From Cenarchaeum sp. (GTDB lineage: Archaea; Thermoproteota; Nitrososphaeria; Nitrososphaerales; Nitrosopumilaceae), in NCBI GenBank assembly GCA_965206845.1, contig OZ242221.1, forward strand, positions 64,001 through 128,000: a stretch of DNA of 64,000 bases. Reading direction: 5' to 3'. The notes beneath the pieces were generated by a model. That model worked only from the letters and a program-made list of their open reading frames with translations. It had not been told where the DNA came from and made no database searches. The position numbers were made by a program, and so were the translations under genes. Shown here in pieces: positions 24,101 to 33,658 of this stretch (its first letter is position 1; every line of letters begins with the position of its first letter).

Positions 24101-26654
24101 CAGTCGACTTTGGCGAGCCGATCGACGCCGCCACCTTCACGCTGGATGACATCTCCGTCACCGGCGGGGACGCCTCTGGCCTGGCCCAGGAGGGCGCGAC
24201 GACCCAAAAATACACATTCACCGTCACCCCGAGCTCCGACGGCCAGCTGACCGTCACGATCCCCGCCGACAGCGTCAAGGACCCCGCCGGCAACAACAAC
24301 ACCGCCTCCGGCCAGCTGCCAGTGACCTTCGACAGGACTACCCCCGTCCCCGCCCTGTCGACTGACGCGGCCTCCCCGACCAACGCGGCATCCGTCACCG
24401 TGGCAGTCGACTTTGGCGAGCCGATCGACGCCGCCACCTTCACGCTGGATGACATCTCCGTCACCGGCGGGGACGACCCAAAAATACACATTCACCTCTC
24501 CGACGGCCAGGCGCTGGCCCAGGAGGGCCGACGACCCAAAAATACACATTCACCGTCACCCCGAGCTCCGACGGCCAGCTGACCGTCACGATCCCCGCCG
24601 ACAGCGTCAAGGACCCCGCCGGCAACAACAACACCGCCTCCGGCCAGCTGCCCGTGACCTTCGACAGGACTACCCCCGGCCCCACCCTGTCGACTGACGC
24701 GGCCTCCCCGACCAACGCGGCATCCGTCACCGTGACAGTCGACTTTGGCGAGCCGATCGACGCCGCCACCTTCACGCTGGATGACATCTCCGTCACCGGC
24801 GGGGACGCCTCTGGCCTGGCCCAGGAGGGCGCGACGACCCAAAAATACACATTCACCGTCACCCCGAGCTCCGACGGCCAGCTGACCGTCACGATCCCCG
24901 CCGACAGCGTCAAGGACCCCGCCGGCAACAACAACACCGCCTCCGGCCAGCTGCCAGTGACCTTCGACAGGACGTCCCCGGCCCCGTCCCTGGCCACCGA
25001 CACCCCCTCTCTGACCAATGCTACCTCCGTCACCGTCGACTTCGGCGAGGCTATAGATGCCTCCACGTTTGCCATCTCGGACGTATCGGTCACCGGCGGG
25101 AATGCCACGAGCCTTGCCCACTCCTCGGCCAACCAGACATTCACCTTCACCCTGATGCCTGACGGCGACGGCGAGGGCGATGTGACTGCCGTAATCCCCG
25201 CCGGCAGCGTCACGGACCCCGCCGGCAACGACAACACCGCCTCCAACATCCTGTCGGTGACCCTCAAGCCGAATGTGGGATGTTTGGAGTATGTGTCATA
25301 CCCCAACAACCCGCCGGTCGTTGATGTGGGTGGAAGCATCACCGTAGCGGAGGGCGAGACCGGTACGCTCCGGGCCACGGTTACCGACATGGACGGCGAT
25401 GATGTGGAGACGATATGGTTTCACTGGAGTCTAGATAATGCGATCATCACCATCGCAGACCCCGAAAGCCTGGTCACGGAGTTTACTGCCCCGTACGTAG
25501 ATAGCGATACGGTCACATACGCGACACTATACGCATGTGACGGCATACACACCGGCGTCGGCAATGATGTCGTACGCATCACCATCACCGACATCCCGGA
25601 GCCGCCAGAGCCGCCCACGCCGCCCCAACTCCCGCCACCGGTACAGGAGCCGGCATACAACGAGTCACCATCCGCGGATGCCGGTGCGGGCTTTACAATC
25701 AACGAGGGCGCCACCGGCCAGCTGCAGGGCACGGCGACCGATCCCGACAACGACCCACTCACCATGGAGTGGTACCAAACCCCCACCTGGCCACTCCTGA
25801 CCCTGACGAATGCATCCGACCCGCGCACGACGATAGTCGCGCCGCAGGTGGACGGGGACACCACCATCACGCTGATACTGTCGGTTTCAGACGGCGACTA
25901 CACCGTGACCGACCAGGTCCGAATCACCATCACCGGCATCCCGGAGTCGCTGGAATCGTCGGAATCAACCACGCCGCCCCAACTCCCGCCACCGGTACAG
26001 GAGTCGGCATACAACGAGCCACCATCCGCGAATGCCGGTGCGGACTTTACAATCAACGAGGGCGCCACCGGCCAGCTGCAGGGCACGGCGACCGATCCCG
26101 ACAACGGCCCACTCACCATAGAGTGGTACCAAACCCCCACCTGGCCACTCCTGACCCTGACGAATGCATCCGACCCGCGCACGGCGATAGTCGCGCCGCA
26201 GGTGGACGGGGACACCACCATCACGCTGATACTGTCGGTTTCAGACGGCGACTACACCGTGACCGACCAGGTCCGAATCACCATCACCGACATCCCGGAG
26301 CCGCCGGAACCGTCGGAATCAACCACGCCGCCCCAACTCCCGCCACCGGTACAGGAGCCGGCATACAACGAGCCACCATCCGCGGATGCCGGTACGGACT
26401 TTACAATCAACGAGGGCGCCACCGGCCAGCTGCAGGGCACGGCAACCGATCTCGACAACGGCCCACTCACCATAGAGTGGTACCAAACCCCCACCTGGCC
26501 ACCCCTGACCCTGACTAATGCCTCCGACCCGCGCACGACGATAGTCGCGCCGCAGGTGGACGGGGACACCACCATCATGCTGATACTGTCAGTTTCGGAC
26601 GGCGACTACACCGTGAACGACCGGGTCCAAATCACCATCATCGATACCGGATAG
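18184..26654 (+). CDS. Giant surface protein: signal/TM, DUF285 (BspA-like) repeats, tandem Ig-like domains, Pro-rich linkers and PKD-like domains; multiply frameshifted in this sequence
   Basis: Consecutive ORFs 18184-19347, 19344-22253, 22415-23947, 24019-24582 and 24654-26654 continue the same repeats; breaks near 19343, 22200, 23870, 24480-24530. Confidence 0.85.
18660..19920 (+). repeat. ~17 DUF285 repeats of 24-25 aa (FNQPLDWDTSKVTxMxxMF / FNGxITxWDTSKVTxMxxMF)
   Basis: Recurrent gactgggacacctcgaaggtcacc...atgttc...tccttcaac. Confidence 0.92.
20500..24975 (+). repeat. Tandem 303-bp (101 aa) Ig-like domain repeats, near identical, about 14 copies
   Basis: ccctgtcgactgacgcggcctccccgacc recurs at 20821, 21124, 21427 etc. 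Confidence 0.93.
25590..26650 (+). repeat. Three ~354-bp PKD-like repeats with PPQLPPP linkers
   Basis: NEPPSADAG.DFTINEGATGQLQGTATD x3. Confidence 0.88.
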
Positions 26655-27280
26655 CCCTCCGCCACCATCTCCACCGTAATCCGACACGGAGCTATCCGTA
26701 CATGAACCGCTCACGTACAACTAACAGCCAGCCGTGGAGGCCGGTGCGGCGCGGGGGGAAGACCCCGGGCCGCGTCCGGGGGCAGTCTTTTTGCGCCTTC
26801 GCGTAAACCGGATCGCCGCACCAGGATGTCACGGGAATGATGCATGCCATGTGCCTGACGCGTGCCATGCGTCTCGGCGCAGAAAGGCTGCGCGGGGTGT
26901 TTTCCCAAACGCTAGATATGGATTGATGGAATTGATGTCTTATTCACCGCAACCATGTGCCACTCCAGAACAGCCATGCGCCCAGGCTGGCGCCGGACTT
27001 CTTGGTTCCCCACGCAGAGACGGCGTCATCCGCTACATTCGCGGCAAAGTCCTGTCCCGACTCCCGCCAAACGTGTCAGTCACGGTGTCGCGGCATTCGG
27101 CATTCGTTGGAGCGGCGGTAGGCGCACCTATGTTAAAACATCCGGTCATAGTCAAGCGTTGATTCCGTTTGACTTCTGATCCACGCCTAGGTTACGCGCG
27201 TGCAACTTTAAAGCTACCGCTAGGGACTGGATTGCAGAAAATCCTGATGCAGGACAGGCCTGACTGGCCGGCCCGTGCAC

Positions 27281-28360
27281 CTACTGCAGGACCTTCTTCA
27301 TCCGTTTCAGCTTTCTGGCATATCGGTCTGCGTTGCGGGACTCGTACGGTTCCTTGGCAGTCAGCATCTTCCAGATGATCCTCACCATCTTGTTTGCCAC
27401 GTGCGTTATGGCAATCGGGTGGTTGCCACCGTGCCTTGTCTTGGCATTTTGATAGAACCACTTTAGCCTATCGTCATAGCGCACCGCCACGTTGGCGGCC
27501 TGGATCATTATCCAGTTTACCCTCCGGTTTGACGCCTTTTTCATGCGGCCGTAATGCGTCACGTTGCCGGACTGGTAGACCCGCGGACACATCCCGGTCC
27601 ATGAGACCAGCCTGTCTGCGGTCTTGAACCTGGTGATGTCGCCAATCTCAGATACCAGCAGCATTGCGGCAAACGTCTCTATGCCAGTCATGCTCATCAG
27701 CAGTTTCGCGTTCTCGTTGACTGCGGCCTGCAGGTCTATCTCTGCCTCGATGCATGTTATCTCCTCTGTGGCATGTGCAATCCTTTTGACGCAGTTTTGC
27801 AGGATCATGTCATCGTTTGGCTTCTTGAGGCGTATCTGCGAAAGCAGCCTGACGGCTTTTTTGCTATACATCCTTGAGACGTCTGGCGTCACGTCGTACT
27901 TGTCAAGCAGGCTGTGCGTGTAGTTGACCAGGGCGGTCCTTGCCTGGACCATGCTTATCCTGTACCTGAGCAGTTCCCTGGCATCGCGCAGATCCGGCGG
28001 TGCCACGTAGCATTCTGGAATGATTCCCACGCGCAGCGCGTTTGCAATCTTTTGCGCGTCGATGGGATCCGTCTTGACGTCGGTGTCCGATATTATCTTC
28101 ATCCTGTACGTGTTGGCAAGCTTGATCGGTATCCCGGACTCTTCAAACGCCTCAAACGTCTTGAGCCACATGTTTGCAGTCGATTCGCACGCGGCCTGGC
28201 ATCGTCCCTTCCCGCCGTATTCTTTTTTCATCCTGCGCGCAAACTCTTTTGCGTCTTCCAGCGTGTTCTTGTATGACGTCCTCTCCAGCACGCCTCCCTT
28301 GCCGTCCACTACGCATACTATGCATTTTCCTTTACCAATGTCTATTCCTATGTTTCTCAT
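27281..28360 (-). CDS. IS110-family DEDD recombinase/transposase, intact
   Basis: IGID, ACES, KTDPIDA, MTGIE, EIGDITRF, YQSG serine motif; SD AAGGAGGTGA upstream of ATG 28360. Confidence 0.95.
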   Translation of the reverse strand: MRNIGIDIGKGKCIVCVVDGKGGVLERTSYKNTLEDAKEFARRMKKEYGGKGRCQAACESTANMWLKTFEAFEESGIPIKLANTYRMKIISDTDVKTDPIDAQKIANALRVGIIPECYVAPPDLRDARELLRYRISMVQARTALVNYTHSLLDKYDVTPDVSRMYSKKAVRLLSQIRLKKPNDDMILQNCVKRIAHATEEITCIEAEIDLQAAVNENAKLLMSMTGIETFAAMLLVSEIGDITRFKTADRLVSWTGMCPRVYQSGNVTHYGRMKKASNRRVNWIMIQAANVAVRYDDRLKWFYQNAKTRHGGNHPIAITHVANKMVRIIWKMLTAKEPYESRNADRYARKLKRMKKVLQ

Positions 28361-28389
28361 CCTTTCTCTCACCTCCTTGCGGATTGTTT

Positions 28390-28530
28390 TTGGCGGATCG
28401 GAAGCTGCAATCACCTATCAGTGCGCGGAGCACAGGAACACAGCAGCTCGGATTGCCCCATTCAAAGGGAAGTGCGCGAAGCACATGGTTTACTAGGGGT
28501 CGATCCACTGCCATGACTACGACGAAGATG
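28390..28530 (-). ncRNA. Predicted bridge RNA of IS110 element 1
   Basis: Outer stem GUGGAUCG/CGAUCCGC encloses two internal-loop hairpins capped by GUGC-UYCGC-GCAC; G-U pairs favour the minus strand; loop strands match the element junctions. Confidence 0.8.
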
Positions 28531-28635
28531 TTTTTCCATGTGTTCAAAGGTTGCTGTGGCTGGCAGAACAAGCAGCCTGACGGAAACGGGCCTGAAAAGT
28601 AGGGCGGGCAGGCTTGAAAAATAATAACGGATCAC

Positions 28636-29026
28636 TTCTCTGCAAGGGATTGGGAATAGTGCCGCTCATCAGGATAAAGAAGAACGCCAACAGCAGGGCC
28701 GGCGGGGTGGGCAGGACGCGCGGCCTGGCCGCCCAGGATCAGCTGTGCGGCAACGATCCCGGCCCGAAAAGACTCGCCGCGCTGGACGAGTGCGAGCGCG
28801 TCCAGAACCAGAAGGACTGGAAGAGGTGGGTCGGCTACGGCCGGCGGTGGCTGGTGGAGATCGTGTTCTCGTCGCTCAAGCGGATGTTCGGCGGTTCCGT
28901 AAACGCGGTAAAGATGGAAAACATCGTCCAGGAGATCGCAATAAGGATCAACACGTACAACAGGCTGTTGGTGGTGGCACGGGAGGCGATCGCAGGAGCG
29001 TGAACGTAGAGTTGTCGCAAGCGCCC
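28636..29026 (+). pseudogene. IS5-family transposase C-terminal remnant with right end
   Basis: WKRWVGYGRRWLVEIVFSSLKRMFG (Y-R-E-K motif); followed by TIR-like GAGTTGTCGCAAGCGCCC. Confidence 0.85.
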
Positions 29027-29166
29027 GCGCTTGGATCAAGGAGGTGCCATTAAGACCTAGGTTGTGAAACTAACTACGATCCGGGCAAAGCATAAAATGT
29101 TGCACCCGCAAAGACAAGCATGGAATTCCACGCCGGCGCACGGCAGGGCTCCTCTCGGCCGTTGCC

Positions 29167-30909
29167 ATGAAAGCCAAGAAGCCGACGGCTCGACAGATAA
29201 GGAATCTGTGCACCGGGGAGTCGTTTGAGCAGGGGCGGCATTACTACGAGCAGGGCATGGTGGCATCGCCGCGCATAAGCGACACCGTCGTGATCGCGCG
29301 CGTCGGGAGTGTCACTCCGAACCGAAGGCCGGACGGGAGCCTCCCGACCGGCGGCACCGTTGTGATCTCCCTAGTCGGCAGGGGCGCCGGGGGCGTCAAG
29401 AATGCCGAACGAGTCAGGGCGCCAGATACCGGGCATGTCGTGGCAGCCCCGCTCGGTTCCTGCGACAGGGAGCACAGGTGCACATGCCCGTACGACGGAA
29501 AGGGGGCCTGCAGCCACGCCGTCGCGGTTCTGCTCTACGCGTCGGACAACTTTGAAAGGATGGCCAAAGACGCGAAGAGGCGAACCAGCCTCATCGGTGT
29601 CTCTCTTGAGGGAATAGTCAACGAGCAGCTGAGGGACTTTCTCATGTCTGAGATGAAGCGTGACGAGGGGCTGTGGAAGCGCTTTCTGGCCCGCGTTGAG
29701 ACCGGCGTGATCCGTGACTACCGCGCGGAGATTGACGCCGCGTATGCCAAGGATGGCGACCGATGGGGGTACAGGGGGGGCGTAAACCTCAGCGAGTTCT
29801 TCATGGCCGCCAAGGCCAACGAGAGGTGCAGAAACCTCGCGGAGGCCGGGCGGATATACGTGGACATGGCCGATGCCATCTACGCCAACATAGTACTCTC
29901 GTACAGCCACGGCGAGCGCTACGACGACTACGAGAAGGCCATAATCGGACTCGTGTCGTGCACGATCAGGCAGGATCGGGGATCCCGCGGGAGACGCCGG
30001 TGCATATCGTATCTGCTCGGGATGGTCGCAAAGGCCAAGATTGACGACGTTGTGGGCATCTGCGAGGATGCTCTGTGCGCGGTGTGCCCCGACAGGCAGG
30101 ACCTGGAGTACCTGAGGGATCTACTCGACCAGCTCGTTCCGGACACGGGTTCCCCCGATCGCCATTCCCTCCATAGCCGGAAGACCACAAGGCTGCTGCG
30201 CATGCAGGCCGATGTGCTGGGCAGGCTCGGAGACGAAGGGCAGGATGCATTCTGCGCAAAGTACTACAGGTACGATCCTGACATCTGCATGCGGTACCTC
30301 AAGATCCTGAACGAGTCGGATCCGGACAGGGCCATGCAGGTAATAGAGGAGGGCGGGCGCCTCTTTCCGCACATAGACATTGCGATGGCCGCGGCCGGAC
30401 TGTACCCGCGATCGGATCCGAGGCGGCTGGATCTGCTGAAGAGGATCTTCTACAAAAAGATGGATCACAGGTACTACCGCATGCTCCGTGACGAATCGAA
30501 CGACTGGCCGGGGATGGCCAAGTCCATAGCCGCGGATCTCAGGAAGGCCGGGCGGTTTGATGCCCTAGTCGCCGCGCTGCTTGCCGTGGGCGCCTACGGG
30601 AGGGCAGTCACCGAGGCGGTCTCGTGCGGCAGCCTTGAGGTGCTTGCGCTGCACCACGGCTACCTGTGCCCGAGGTATCCGGAACGGTACTACGCCGCCT
30701 ACAAGAGCCTCCTGGAAGACTTTGACATAACCGCAAGCAGCGACGGCCACAAAAAGTTCGCGAGGTATCTGAAGATGATGAAGTCCGTTCCGGGCCACGA
30801 GGAGGCGTTTGCGGGTTTTGTGGCATCCGTAATGGACAGGTACCGCAGGAGGTCTGCCCTTCTAAAGGAGATCAAGGCAGCCCTGATGCCGAGCCGAGCC
30901 GCAGTATGA
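29167..30909 (+). CDS. SWIM zinc-finger protein with helical-repeat C-terminus
   Basis: SFEQGRHYYEQG.V, CTCPYDGKGACSH (CxCxnCxH), C-terminal YRRRSALLKEI. Confidence 0.85.
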   Translation: MKAKKPTARQIRNLCTGESFEQGRHYYEQGMVASPRISDTVVIARVGSVTPNRRPDGSLPTGGTVVISLVGRGAGGVKNAERVRAPDTGHVVAAPLGSCDREHRCTCPYDGKGACSHAVAVLLYASDNFERMAKDAKRRTSLIGVSLEGIVNEQLRDFLMSEMKRDEGLWKRFLARVETGVIRDYRAEIDAAYAKDGDRWGYRGGVNLSEFFMAAKANERCRNLAEAGRIYVDMADAIYANIVLSYSHGERYDDYEKAIIGLVSCTIRQDRGSRGRRRCISYLLGMVAKAKIDDVVGICEDALCAVCPDRQDLEYLRDLLDQLVPDTGSPDRHSLHSRKTTRLLRMQADVLGRLGDEGQDAFCAKYYRYDPDICMRYLKILNESDPDRAMQVIEEGGRLFPHIDIAMAAAGLYPRSDPRRLDLLKRIFYKKMDHRYYRMLRDESNDWPGMAKSIAADLRKAGRFDALVAALLAVGAYGRAVTEAVSCGSLEVLALHHGYLCPRYPERYYAAYKSLLEDFDITASSDGHKKFARYLKMMKSVPGHEEAFAGFVASVMDRYRRRSALLKEIKAALMPSRAAV

Positions 30910-32246: not shown

Positions 32247-32414
32247 GCCACAGATAATGAAGCCTAGAATATAACGCCTGCCATATGGGAGTTCTTCAGC
32301 AGATACTCAGGTGTGCATCCTTAGATCCATGATTAGAATCCAGAGAACTGTGCCGTAGGCACCACAAGTCTTGCCATATCCACACCTGATCAGACACTAT
32401 GTGTTGCTGATATA

Positions 32415-32562
32415 AGGGCAACCGTAGTAACCGCCCTGTTGGACCTGAGAGTCGATGAGACCCTGCCACGTATGAGGGCGTTACTCAGACTGACTCAAGG
32501 TATGCGGATAGTGAAATACCGCTTTGACGGTAAATGGGAGTTTTCCGCTGGTCGGGTCCACT
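32415..32562 (+). ncRNA. Predicted bridge RNA of IS110 element 2
   Basis: 5' stem AGGGC/GCCCT; outer stem UGGACCUGA/UCGGGUCCA; loop 1 closed by GAGUC/GACUC; loop 2 closed by GCGGA/UCCGC with hairpin UACCG/CGGUA; four guide segments match the junctions. Confidence 0.82.
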
Positions 32563-32584
32563 TTACTGCAAAGGAGGTGAGAGA

Positions 32585-33658
32585 ATGTATTACATTGGAA
32601 TAGACGTTCACAGAAAGAAGTGCGTTACAACGATCAAGGAAGACAGCAAGCGGGTGCTGAAACGCACCTCGTTTGACAACGACACCACCGGAATAAACGG
32701 GTTCATCGGGATGCTCCGCAGTGACGGGTACCTGCCGGCCACTGCGGCCTGCGAATCGACCGGCAACTATTGGATCGTCCTGCACGACACGCTGGAGGCG
32801 GCGGGCATCGACACCCTGCTGGCGCACCCGTACCACCTCAAGATAATCACCCAGACCGCCTACAAGAACGACAAGGCCGACTCGGAGAAGCTGGCCGAGT
32901 TGTGCAGGCATGACATGATCCCGGAGTCGTTTGTGGTAAATGCCGCCCAGCGCGACATGCGCGAGCTGACCCGCAGCCGCCTTGGACTGGTGGGCGACAC
33001 GGTAGCGCCCAGAAACCGCATCCACGCGATCGTTGCCAGGTATTCCTACAAGCGTCCCAGCTGCGGACTGTTCACAGGCGGCGGTCTGGAGTGGCTGCAG
33101 AGCCTGTCCCTGAGCGAGACCGACCGTCTGGGGGTGGACACCCACCTGGCCAAGCTGGTCTTCCTGCGGGGGCGGATCGCCAGGTACGAAAGGAGGATAG
33201 CCGAGATCGCCCGGAACGACCCGCGGGCGCGGCTCATCATGATCATCCCCGGAATAGGCTACATTACGGCGGTAACCATACTGGCCGAGATCGTCGACCA
33301 CGGGCGCTTTGCCAACGCAGAAAAGCTGGTCTCCTACGCCGGACTGTCGCCGAGGCACCACAACAGCGGGGATACTGTCAGGACGGGCGGCATAACAAAG
33401 CGCGGCTCCGTCTGGCTGCGCACCGCCATGGTCGAGGCCGCCTTCACCGCCATCAGGCACGACGCCCGGATAGGGGCGCGCTACCACAAGCTGGCAGCCC
33501 GCATAGGGACCATGAAGGCAAGGGTGGCCACGGCCAGGGTCATGCTAGAATGGGTCTGGGAGATGCTGAACAGCGGCACCGAGTACAGGGGAATAGACAG
33601 AAAACTCGTCAGGCGGAAAATGCAGATGACAAGGTGTATCGCCGAGTCCCAGGCGTAA
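32585..33658 (+). CDS. IS110-family DEDD recombinase/transposase, intact
   Basis: YIGIDVH, ACESTG, KNDKADS, IPGIG, YAGL.P.HHNSG; SD AAGGAGGTGA. Confidence 0.95.
   Translation: MYYIGIDVHRKKCVTTIKEDSKRVLKRTSFDNDTTGINGFIGMLRSDGYLPATAACESTGNYWIVLHDTLEAAGIDTLLAHPYHLKIITQTAYKNDKADSEKLAELCRHDMIPESFVVNAAQRDMRELTRSRLGLVGDTVAPRNRIHAIVARYSYKRPSCGLFTGGGLEWLQSLSLSETDRLGVDTHLAKLVFLRGRIARYERRIAEIARNDPRARLIMIIPGIGYITAVTILAEIVDHGRFANAEKLVSYAGLSPRHHNSGDTVRTGGITKRGSVWLRTAMVEAAFTAIRHDARIGARYHKLAARIGTMKARVATARVMLEWVWEMLNSGTEYRGIDRKLVRRKMQMTRCIAESQA

What the first reader, a model, noticed from the sequence alone, without database searches (positions are those of the whole stretch)
27118..28550. Second, divergent IS110 with a symmetric two-loop bridge RNA (duplicated GUGC-UYCGC-GCAC hairpin) and a CA core
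Seen on the minus strand: CCCUA-GUAAACCAU-[GUGCUUCGCGCAC]-UUCCCUUUGAA-UGGGG, then GAGCUGC-UGUGUUCCU-[GUGCUCCGCGCAC]-UGAUAGGUGAUU-GCAGCUU, enclosed by GUGGAUCG/CGAUCCGC. The right junction TGTGTT-CA-AAGG (28539-50) combines the loop 2 left guide with the loop 1 right guide. The left junction CA-CCTAT (27125-31) matches the loop 2 right guide. Sub-terminal inverted repeats independently confirm these ends. The near-identical hairpins suggest the two loops arose by duplication (inference). A different core and guides from element 2 imply an orthogonal system in the same genome.
Basis: partly seen in the sequence, partly recalled or inferred. Interest (0 to 1): 0.85.

Follow-up and report, generated by a model that had tools for sequence, protein, structure and literature searches.

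The report
Archaeal IS110 element with bridge RNA
This is an intact jumping gene of the IS110 family in an ammonia-oxidising archaeon whose small folded RNA reads both its own ends and its insertion site, a known kind of RNA-guided element in a slightly unusual layout.

Summary
Window 27125-28546 (minus strand) is a 1,420-bp IS110-family element. It has a 359-aa DEDD transposase (Pfam PF01548 + PF02371; NCBIfam NF033542, 229 bits) and a 116-nt RNA (28508-28393) upstream of it.

The RNA has an outer stem and two arms. Each arm is an internal loop capped by a near-identical hairpin.

- **Structure:** across 21 homologues, 20 of 27 base pairs show compensatory changes.
- **Guides:** the loop strands covary with the DNA in permutation tests on 20-29 element/flank pairs (0 of 10,000 permutations as good).
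- **Target:** the predicted target GTAAAC-CA-AAGG appears as the two flanks in contigs of another population.

The guide order (top-strand match 5' of bottom-strand match) and the 13-nt sub-terminal inverted repeats are those of IS1111-type seekRNA elements, yet the RNA lies upstream as in IS110-type elements. In this genome the right flank is not the cognate half-target.

No circle junction and no firm RNA evidence was found. Verdict: a new member of a known kind.

The parts
27125..28546 (-). Whole IS110-family element including the core dinucleotide at both junctions (1,418 bp plus one 2-bp core = 1,420 bp)
   Evidence: Homology with copies B and C ends at 27125. The left end is set by relatives L016-L019. 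Length.
28545..28546 (-). Core dinucleotide at the left (RNA-proximal) junction: TG on the coding strand, CA on the + strand
   Evidence: Four relatives with different flanks all begin TG-AATGCATG. 32 of 41 model hits carry TG-N4-(C/T/A)A-TG 30-43 nt upstream of the RNA.
28539..28544 (-). First six bases of the left end (AACACA), complementary to the 5' strand of the donor loop (UGUGUU)
   Evidence: 6 of 6 here. Over 20 distinct guide/end pairs the mean is 4.70 of 6, against 3.07 when permuted (0 of 10,000).
28527..28539 (.). Left sub-terminal inverted repeat
   Evidence: Pair I2 with 27130-27142, 13 nt, 85% complementary.
28393..28508 (-). Bridge RNA core (116 nt): outer stem P1 (28508-28501 with 28400-28393) enclosing two arms
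   Evidence: Fold. Model hit 151 bits, the only hit in the window. All 8 of 8 P1 pairs change on both sides.
28456..28499 (-). Target-binding arm. Stem CCCC/GGGG. The 5' strand UAGUAAACCAU (28495-85) is complementary to TG plus the downstream flank. Cap hairpin 28484-72. The 3' strand UUCCCUUUGAAU (28471-60) has the same sense as the upstream flank plus TG.
   Evidence: Permutation tests. Upstream flank: 4.76 of 7 against 1.98, n = 29. Downstream flank: 4.73 of 7 against 2.27, n = 22. Both 0 of 10,000.
28402..28449 (-). Donor-binding arm. Stem GAGCUGC/GCAGCUU. The 5' strand UGUGUUCCU (28442-34) pairs with the left-end hexamer. Cap hairpin 28433-21. The 3' strand UGAUAGGUGAUU (28420-09) has the same sense as the right end ATAGG plus TG.
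   Evidence: For the right end, 5.0 of 7 against 3.8, with 163 of 10,000 permutations as good, on only 7 distinct pairs.
28370..28376 (-). GGAGGTG ribosome-binding-like motif, 9 nt before the ATG
   Evidence: Read; conserved in relatives.
27281..28360 (-). Transposase gene, 359 aa, intact
   Evidence: PF01548 (9.3e-22) and PF02371 (5.6e-24). NF033542 at 229 bits, cut-off 140. C-terminal domain matches ISCro4 (4.7e-8) and IS621 (4.2e-7) chains in the PDB.
27127..27280 (-). Right non-coding end (154 nt), no conserved RNA fold found
   Evidence: RNAalifold on 14 right ends gave no consensus structure.
27130..27142 (.). Right sub-terminal inverted repeat
27125..27126 (-). Core dinucleotide at the right junction (TG coding strand, CA on +)
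   Evidence: Copies A, B, C and D all end ...AACATAGG-TG. Contigs of 4 of 4 runs diverge before 27125.
28547..28553 (+). Cognate right half of the target in the RNA's frame (AAGGTTG), part of a truncated DDE-transposase IS
   Evidence: Three intact copies of that IS read ...GGTAAAT-CA-AAGGTTG.... DDE_Tnp_1 on ORF 28614-29003.

Best explanation
This is an intact RNA-guided insertion sequence of the IS110 family.

**The RNA.** Its left end encodes a bridge (seek) RNA of about 116 nt. An outer stem holds two arms, and each arm is an internal loop closed by a 4-bp, 5-nt-loop hairpin.

**Arm 1 reads the target.**
- Its 3' strand (CCCUU-UG) has the sense of the upstream flank plus core, so it would pair with the bottom strand.
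- Its 5' strand (GUAAAC-CA) is complementary to the core plus the downstream flank.

**Arm 2 reads the element's joined ends.**
- Its 3' strand (AUAGG-UG) has the sense of the right end plus core.
- Its 5' strand (UGUGUU) is complementary to the first six bases of the left end.

**The reaction.** Recombination at the shared dinucleotide (TG on the coding strand, CA in the RNA's frame) would insert a circular copy into GTAAAC-CA-AAGG. That site lies inside another IS of this genome. No duplication is made.

**Shown here:** the ends, the core, the fold and the guide-to-DNA covariation.

**Inferred from IS621, ISEc21 and ISEc11 work:** the recombinase tetramer, the circular intermediate, a promoter formed at or reading across the joined ends, and strand exchange at the core.

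**Layout.** It is a hybrid. The guide order and sub-terminal repeats are IS1111-like; the position of the RNA gene is IS110-like.
For: - **Protein family:**
- **Precise insertion with TG at both junctions.** The empty MITE site reads ...CATT-TG-GTTATG.... The occupied site reads ...CATT-TG-[element]-TG-GTTATG....
- **Left end TG-N6-TG in relatives with unrelated flanks:**
- **RNA fold:** z = -2.97.
- **Model hits:** 21 of 31 loci and 41 hits in 44 sources, each upstream of the transposase gene.
- **Covariation:** 20 of 27 pairs change on both sides, 93.9% paired, 0 of 500 shuffles as good.
- **Guide against DNA, permutation tests:**
  - upstream flank 4.76 of 7 against 1.98 (29 pairs);
  - downstream flank 4.73 of 7 against 2.27 (22 pairs);
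  - left-end hexamer 4.70 of 6 against 3.07 (20 pairs);
  - all three 0 of 10,000.
- **Retargeting within one genome (G084).** The guide changes from UUUUUUGUG to UUGGUCGUG and the flank from ATTTGTG to CGTCGTG.
- **Cognate target seen.** A contig of run X5 carries ...GGATTGGTAAAC before 27125. Intact host-IS copies read GTAAAT-CA-AAGG.
- **Guide order.** It matches what Siddiquee et al. 2024 (PMC11187229, sections 9 and 12 read) report for IS1111 seekRNAs.
Against: - No circle junction in the assembled genome or in metagenome contigs.
- No firm RNA evidence. The one RNA-library contig over 27929-28487 differs at 24 of 559 positions and may be DNA or another copy.
- Copy A's right flank matches its guide at 0 of 7 positions.
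- The CC in the 5' donor strand does not pair with the TG core. That position varies across the family.
- Copies B, C and D lack the six-base left-end match yet sit in three places.
- The right-end test rests on only 7 distinct pairs (163 of 10,000).
- Homologues are kin, not independent, and the alignments were fitted to the model.
- Nothing was tested biochemically.
Confidence: 0.88

Rival explanations
1. Family placement, reading 1. It is an IS1111-type element whose guide-RNA gene has moved from the right end to the left end. The chemistry and polarity are IS1111-like; only the gene order differs.
For: - The top-strand match lies 5' of the bottom-strand match, as in ISEc11, ISPa11 and ISKpn4 (PMC11187229, section 9).
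- It has a 13-nt sub-terminal inverted repeat. This recurs with other sequences in relatives, for example TAACCACCCC in G084.
- The paper notes IS1111-clade exceptions with an upstream non-coding region, such as ISMtsp17 (PMC11187229, section 6).
Against: - The RNA is upstream of the transposase gene, the IS110-type hallmark.
- No tree with named IS1111 and IS110 references was made.
- The only solved relatives found, ISCro4 and IS621, match the C-terminal domain alone.
Confidence: 0.5
2. Family placement, reading 2. It is an IS110-type element, or a separate archaeal branch, in which the donor site is inverted relative to the genes. The resemblance to IS1111 in guide order and repeats is then convergent.
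For: - The non-coding region is upstream: 184 nt against 154 nt downstream.
- Element 2 of the same window (30% identity) fits the same outer-stem, two-arm model weakly, and at the expected place.
- The family is widespread in this archaeal order: 53 of 401 genomes.
Against: - Long sub-terminal repeats are said to be absent or 2-3 bp in the IS110 group (PMC11208160, section 12).
- The guide order is the reverse of IS621 and ISEc21.
Confidence: 0.35
3. Copy A is a stranded copy in this genome. After inserting into its cognate site it lost the flank next to its right end, and it can no longer excise precisely.
For: - The right flank CGCCTAC matches the guide-predicted GTTTACT at 0 of 7 positions.
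- The other half of the host IS is nowhere else in the genome.
- Contigs of runs X1 and X6 bridge 27125 exactly as in the window, so this is not an assembly error.
- ISEc21 needs target-derived bases on both sides to form circles (PMC11187229, section 12).
Against: - The gene, RNA and both ends are intact.
- A copy-out route that spares the donor has been proposed for another IS110 element (bioRxiv 10.1101/2025.10.25.684509, abstract only read).
- Another population (X5) holds the copy with both cognate flanks.
Confidence: 0.5
4. The folded leader is only a cis-acting regulatory structure of the transposase mRNA, and its matches to flanks and ends are incidental.
For: It lies directly upstream of the ribosome-binding motif. 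No RNA ends were mapped.
Against: - The loop strands, not just the stems, covary with flanking DNA and with the element's own ends across lineages.
- Solo copies of the leader without a gene also keep the matches, for example L006.
Confidence: 0.03

Closest known systems
IS621 (and ISEc21, ISCro4): IS110-type bridge RNA / seekRNA elements
   Same: - DEDD transposase with the PF02371 domain.
- Guide RNA encoded upstream of the gene.
- Two loops, one for the target and one for the joined ends.
- A 2-bp core present at both junctions.
- No target duplication.
- Preference for repeated DNA. ISEc21 also targets another IS's transposase gene (PMC11187229, section 12).
   Different: - The guide order is reversed. 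[quoted passage not shown] - The core is TG/CA, not CT.
- The sub-terminal repeat is 13 nt, against 2-3 bp.
- An outer stem encloses both arms.
- The 5' donor strand does not cover the core.
- Protein similarity is confined to the C-terminal domain (E 4e-7).
ISEc11, ISKpn4, ISPa11: IS1111-type seekRNA elements
   Same: The top-strand match lies 5' of the bottom-strand match. Sub-terminal inverted repeats fall in the 7-17 bp range. Insertion is site-specific and makes no duplication.
   Different: Their RNA is encoded downstream of the transposase gene. Many have the donor-binding bases in a multi-loop (PMC11208160, section 12). Here both are simple internal loops and the RNA is upstream.
ISMtsp17, ISHvo10, ISAcp5: exceptions named by Siddiquee et al.
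   Same: They are described as IS1111-related elements with an upstream non-coding region, or with long non-coding regions at both ends (PMC11187229, section 6). That is the same hybrid layout.
   Different: The text I read gives no RNA, guides or ends for them. Two haloarchaeal plasmid relatives (32-34% identity) gave no hit to this RNA model upstream of their genes.
Element 2 of this window (32404-33658, +)
   Same: IS110-family transposase with an upstream leader. The leader fits the same outer-stem, two-arm model at the expected place.
   Different: - 30% protein identity.
- Model score only 8.9 bits, E 0.38.
- Different cap hairpins and loop strands.
- Single copy in the genome.
- Its ends and core were not worked out here.

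Membership tests
IS110 family (RNA-guided DEDD transposase elements, both groups) | [quoted passage not shown] | tested here: met
   (9.3e-22 and 5.6e-24). NF033542 at 229 bits, cut-off 140.
IS110 family (RNA-guided DEDD transposase elements, both groups) | Precise insertion without target duplication, with the same core dinucleotide at both junctions | tested here: met
   Empty against occupied MITE site for sister copies B and C. TG stands at both junctions of A and of relatives. One relative, L019, has CG at the right junction.
IS110 family (RNA-guided DEDD transposase elements, both groups) | [quoted passage not shown] | tested here: met
IS110 family (RNA-guided DEDD transposase elements, both groups) | Circular intermediate with abutted ends | tested here: inconclusive
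   The junction string is absent from the genome and from metagenome contigs. Only assembled contigs could be laid, not raw reads.
IS110 family (RNA-guided DEDD transposase elements, both groups) | RNA binds the transposase and is needed for movement | not testable with these tools
   Needs biochemistry.
IS110-type group (IS621, ISEc21) | Longer non-coding region and guide RNA upstream of the transposase gene | tested here: met
   184 nt upstream holding the RNA, 154 nt downstream without a conserved fold.
IS110-type group (IS621, ISEc21) | Bottom-strand match 5' of top-strand match in each loop | tested here: not met
   The order is the reverse here and in the homologues, against the wording of PMC11208160 sections 6-7 and PMC11187229 section 12.
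IS110-type group (IS621, ISEc21) | Sub-terminal inverted repeats absent or only 2-3 bp | tested here: not met
   13 nt, 85% complementary.
IS1111-type group | Sub-terminal inverted repeats of 7-17 bp | tested here: met
   Relatives carry repeats of other sequence. The lengths are biased, because the repeat was used to pick the right end.
IS1111-type group | Top-strand match 5' of bottom-strand match | tested here: met
IS1111-type group | Guide RNA encoded downstream of the transposase gene | tested here: not met
   The RNA is upstream. No fold was found downstream.
IS1111-type group | Transposase falls in the IS1111 clade | not tested
   No named reference sequences could be obtained. Plasmid hits are annotated only as 'IS110 family transposase'.
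Rfam families | Match to a curated RNA family | tested here: not met
   The only hit at E up to 10 was a trypanosomatid snoRNA model at 17.9 bits, against a gathering score of 35.

The most novel reading that the evidence does not exclude
These elements are a third layout of RNA-guided IS110 recombination, widespread in ammonia-oxidising archaea. It combines four features:
- an RNA gene that reads away from the joined ends, as in the IS110 type, with IS1111 polarity;
- an outer stem that closes both arms;
- two cap hairpins that are kept alike, which suggests both recombinase dimers read the same RNA feature;
- a 5' donor strand that skips the core.

The sister copies that lack the six-base left-end match still reached at least two MITE copies. 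This would mean that pairing with only one half of the donor can suffice in nature.
Probability: 0.25. Interest if true: 0.65.

Novelty: new member of a known kind. Interest (0 to 1): 0.45.

Why it matters
- It documents, with natural covariation, a compact (about 116 nt) two-arm bridge RNA family in Nitrososphaerales archaea.
- It gives a fully specified natural donor, target and core for one member.
- It shows that guide order and RNA-gene position, the two traits used to separate the IS110 and IS1111 types, can be uncoupled.
- The symmetric twin-hairpin scaffold and the second, distant system in the same genome offer a natural pair for testing orthogonality of bridge recombinases.
- None of this changes the known mechanism.

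Tried and rejected
- **Rfam scan of 26500-29500:** nothing credible.
- **Circle junction, 8-bp footprint and further full left ends in the genome:** none beyond copy A.
- **Circle junction in metagenome contigs:** 0 hits.
- **Copy A's left end in metagenome contigs:** 0 hits.
- **RNA evidence.** Run X18 gave one low-depth contig (27929-28487, 24 differences) and fragments. It cannot show a transcript, a start or an end.
- **Named reference transposases for a tree.** The plasmid search returned 613 records, almost all labelled only 'IS110 family transposase'. The control genomes gave no loci. So clade placement was dropped.
- **Extension of the RNA family to haloarchaeal relatives:** no hit upstream of either gene.
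- **Invariant catalytic residues.** My automatic start-codon choice misaligned the N-termini, so the list is not used.
- **First boundary reading, rejected.** I first read the left boundary 8 nt further in, from the homology with copies B and C. Relatives show that B, C and D carry a deletion.
- **First regular expression:** found nothing because it was mis-written. It was corrected.
- **Rows dropped before the tests:**
  - 9 of 41 model hits lacked a TG-N4-(C/T/A)A-TG motif upstream: L002, L003, L027, L035, L054, L055, L056, L057, L058.
  - Right-end tests used only elements whose right end was found with a terminal repeat of at least 7 nt. L035 and L054 were set aside as doubtful.
- **Supplements.** Those of PMC11208160 and PMC11187229 were closed. 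They may show upstream-RNA members with IS1111 polarity.
Full report
**What is there.** On the minus strand of 27125-28546 lies a 1,420-bp element.
- Its ORF, 28360-27281, encodes 359 aa. It matches DEDD_Tnp_IS110 and Transposase_20 over their full lengths. It also matches NCBIfam NF033542, 'IS110 family RNA-guided transposase', at 229 bits against a cut-off of 140.
- The only solved relatives are the ISCro4 and IS621 transposases, through the C-terminal domain only.
- The genome is a single 1.65-Mb contig. Its nearest named relatives are Nitrosopumilus MAGs.
- Besides this copy (A), the genome holds two full copies at about 92% identity (B, C) and a 5'-deleted copy (D). It also holds a diverged copy (L014), a solo leader (L006) and the 30%-identical 'element 2' at window 32591-33622.

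**Ends and core.**
- *Right end.* Copies A-D all end ...GTTTTAACATAGG-TG, and homology stops at 27125.
- *Precise insertion.* B, C and D sit at one position of a 79-bp MITE. An empty MITE copy reads ...CTCATT-TG-GTTATG.... The occupied ones read ...TTCATT-TG-[element]-TG-GTTATG.... So insertion is precise, with TG at both junctions and no duplication.
But four copies in a Nitrosopumilus MAG (73-74% protein identity, four unrelated flanks) all begin TG-AATGCATGTAAAAAC. This is co-linear with A's TG-AACACATGGAAAAAC. In addition, 32 of 41 model hits across the order carry TG-N4-(C/T/A)A-TG 30-43 nt upstream of the RNA.
B, C and D carry an 8-nt deletion, TG-AACACA-TG to TG.
- *Sub-terminal repeat.* It lies at 27130-42 / 28527-39, 13 nt, 85% complementary. 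Alone it is one of 15 such pairs in the stretch. Relatives have repeats of other sequence at the same places.

**The RNA.**
- Bases 28508-28393 fold into an 8-bp outer stem and two arms, each an internal loop capped by a 13-nt hairpin: -41.2 kcal/mol, z = -2.97, 1 of 200 shuffles as good.
- A covariance model from 7 copies hit 21 of 31 loci taken from an order-wide protein search. That search had found the transposase in 53 of 401 genomes at E up to 1e-30.
- On those 21 sequences 93.9% of cells pair, 20 of 27 pairs change on both sides, and no shuffle of 500 reaches this. Slid controls pair at 41% or less. The alignment is model-fitted and the sequences are kin, so these figures overstate independence.
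- A wider search gave 41 hits in 44 sources, with exactly one in the window.
- Rfam has no matching family.

**Guides.** I took the four loop strands from the model alignment. I located the ends independently: the left end by the TG-N6-TG motif, the right end by the donor-strand match plus the terminal repeat. I then compared each strand with its DNA.

| Loop strand | Compared with | Distinct pairs | Observed | Permuted | Permutations as good |
|---|---|---|---|---|---|
| 3' strand of arm 1 | upstream flank, same sense, ending in the core | 29 | 4.76 of 7 | 1.98 | 0 of 10,000 |
| 5' strand of arm 1 | core plus downstream flank, reverse complement | 22 | 4.73 of 7 | 2.27 | 0 of 10,000 |
| 5' hexamer of arm 2 | first six bases of the left end, reverse complement | 20 | 4.70 of 6 | 3.07 | 0 of 10,000 |
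| 3' strand of arm 2 | right end plus core, same sense | 7 | 5.0 of 7 | 3.8 | 163 of 10,000 |

- Examples of change on both sides: UGUGUU/AACACA in A, UGCGUU/AATGCA in L016, UAUCCA/TAGATA in L030, and UGUAUA/TATACA in L027.
- Within genome G084, one copy has UUUUUUGUG next to ATTTGTG. Three others have UUGGUCGUG next to CGTCGTG.
- The core is covered by three of the four strands. The 5' donor strand has CC in A, and that position varies across the family. In IS621 all four guides are said to include the core (PMC11208160, section 7, passage read).

**Cognate target.**
- A's guides predict GTAAAC-CA-AAGGGAA in the RNA's frame.
- The flank at 28547 onward reads AAGGTTG. It belongs to a DDE-transposase IS. 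Its three intact copies read GTAAAT-CA-AAGGTTG at that point.
- In this genome the other flank, before 27125, is unrelated (0 of 7). The missing half of the host IS is nowhere else.
- Contigs of runs X1 and X6 bridge 27125 as in the window, so this arrangement is real.
- A 421-nt contig of run X5 instead reads ...GCGGATTGGTAAAC immediately before 27125. This is the missing half, with a perfect GTAAAC.
- All 4 of 4 runs laid have contigs that diverge at 27125.

**Polarity and placement.**
[quoted passage not shown] The 3' strand has the sense of the left half.
- Siddiquee et al. report the same order for ISEc21. They report the reverse, top-strand match first, for the IS1111-type ISEc11, ISPa11 and ISKpn4 (PMC11187229, abstract and sections 6, 9 and 12 read).
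- The element here therefore has IS1111-type guide order and IS1111-type sub-terminal repeats, but an IS110-type upstream RNA gene.
- The same paper names exceptions with upstream non-coding regions (ISMtsp17; ISHvo10 and ISAcp5 with both). It gives no RNA details in the text I read.
- A full-text search for bridge RNA together with archaeal, Nitrosopumilus, Thaumarchaeota or Nitrososphaer- terms listed no paper containing 'bridge RNA' among the 12 shown. This is not proof of absence.
- I could not make a tree with named references.

**Twin hairpins.**
- The two caps in A differ at 1 of 13 positions.
Caps of different RNAs are 0.56 identical (0 of 5,000 permutations).
- Several lineages have identical pairs of different sequence: GGGCUAUGCGCCC, CGGCUUCGAGCCG, and GGUC..GACC forms.
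- The arms are thus kept alike. Either both recombinase dimers read the same feature, or the arms are homogenised. Which one applies, and whether the arms began as a duplication, remains inference.

**State of the copies.**
- A is intact but lacks its right half-target here. ISEc21 needs target bases on both sides to form circles (PMC11187229, section 12). So A may be unable to excise precisely in this genome (inference).
- B and C differ at 26 of 1,416 positions in the element. Their MITE arms differ at 8 of 56 and 3 of 24 aligned positions. This points to separate insertions into different MITE copies, or to gene conversion between element copies. I cannot tell which.
- If they were separate insertions, a donor without the six-base left-end match has moved.
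- D lost the RNA and the 5' part of the gene, between two TGGAAA repeats.

**Element 2.**
- Its leader aligns end to end with the model at the expected place, but only at 8.9 bits, E 0.38. So does its homologue L020.
- Different guides and caps make cross-reaction unlikely, but this was not tested. I did not determine its ends or core.

**Mechanism.**
- *Shown by sequence comparison:* the ends, the core, the fold, and which strand matches what.
- *Inferred from the family* (PMC11208160; PMC13626964, abstract and section 4 read):
  - a recombinase tetramer holds both loops;
  - the element excises as a circle;
  - expression of the RNA rises from the joined ends;
  - strands are exchanged at the core.
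- A conserved CTAGCG-N-TAGCT plus TTTAAA/ATAAA box about 95 nt inside the right end (27206-27223), and the T/A-rich TTTTAACATA at the very end, are candidate outward archaeal promoter elements. This is inference only.

**Verdict.** It is a new, well-supported member of a known kind of system with a hybrid layout. It is not a new mechanism.

Noticed in passing
L002 (G000:C1:1326793-1328212), L003 (1542297-1543716), L004 (1266804-1267863): Sister copies B, C and D lack 8 nt at the left end (TG-AACACA-TG reduced to TG). This removes the hexamer that the donor loop's 5' strand reads. Yet they occupy the same position in three different MITE copies, whose arms are much more diverged than the elements.
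   Followed up: partly
L004 (G000:C1:1266750-1267863): Copy D has lost the whole bridge RNA and the first ~57 codons of the gene, through a deletion between two TGGAAA repeats.
   Followed up: partly
G000:C1 near 262120, 864000, 1096155, 1505536: A MITE of about 79 bp has terminal inverted repeats GGCTGTGTCCTAC... and 8-10 bp direct repeats at its flanks. It is the target of copies B-D. Only one of the four empty copies examined has the near-cognate CTCATT-TG-GTTATG site.
   Followed up: partly
window 28547-29050 and 26654-27124: Copy A sits in a truncated DDE_Tnp_1 insertion sequence with three intact copies elsewhere. The half that should follow A's right end is absent from the genome, so a deletion or rearrangement ends exactly at the element's core.
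   Followed up: partly
window 27206-27223 (minus strand): A palindromic CTAGCGGTAGCT followed by TTTAAAG is conserved in relatives down to about 50% protein identity, about 95 nt inside the right end. It may be an outward-facing archaeal promoter.
   Followed up: no
L019 (OZ240211.1 1597980-1602059): One relative has TG at its left junction but CG at its right junction, with a one-base mismatch in the left flank. This looks like insertion at a site with an imperfect core.
   Followed up: no
L006 (G000:C1:678674-678771 region): A solo left end plus bridge RNA with no transposase gene behind it still shows guide-flank and guide-end matches.
   Followed up: no
window 32404-32591 (L015:1349-1481): The leader of element 2 fits the same outer-stem, two-arm model weakly (8.9 bits, E 0.38) at the expected place. 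So does its homologue L020.
   Followed up: partly
window 24654-26654 (+): A 666-aa protein with PKD and bacterial Ig-like domains is built of near-identical tandem units.
   Followed up: no
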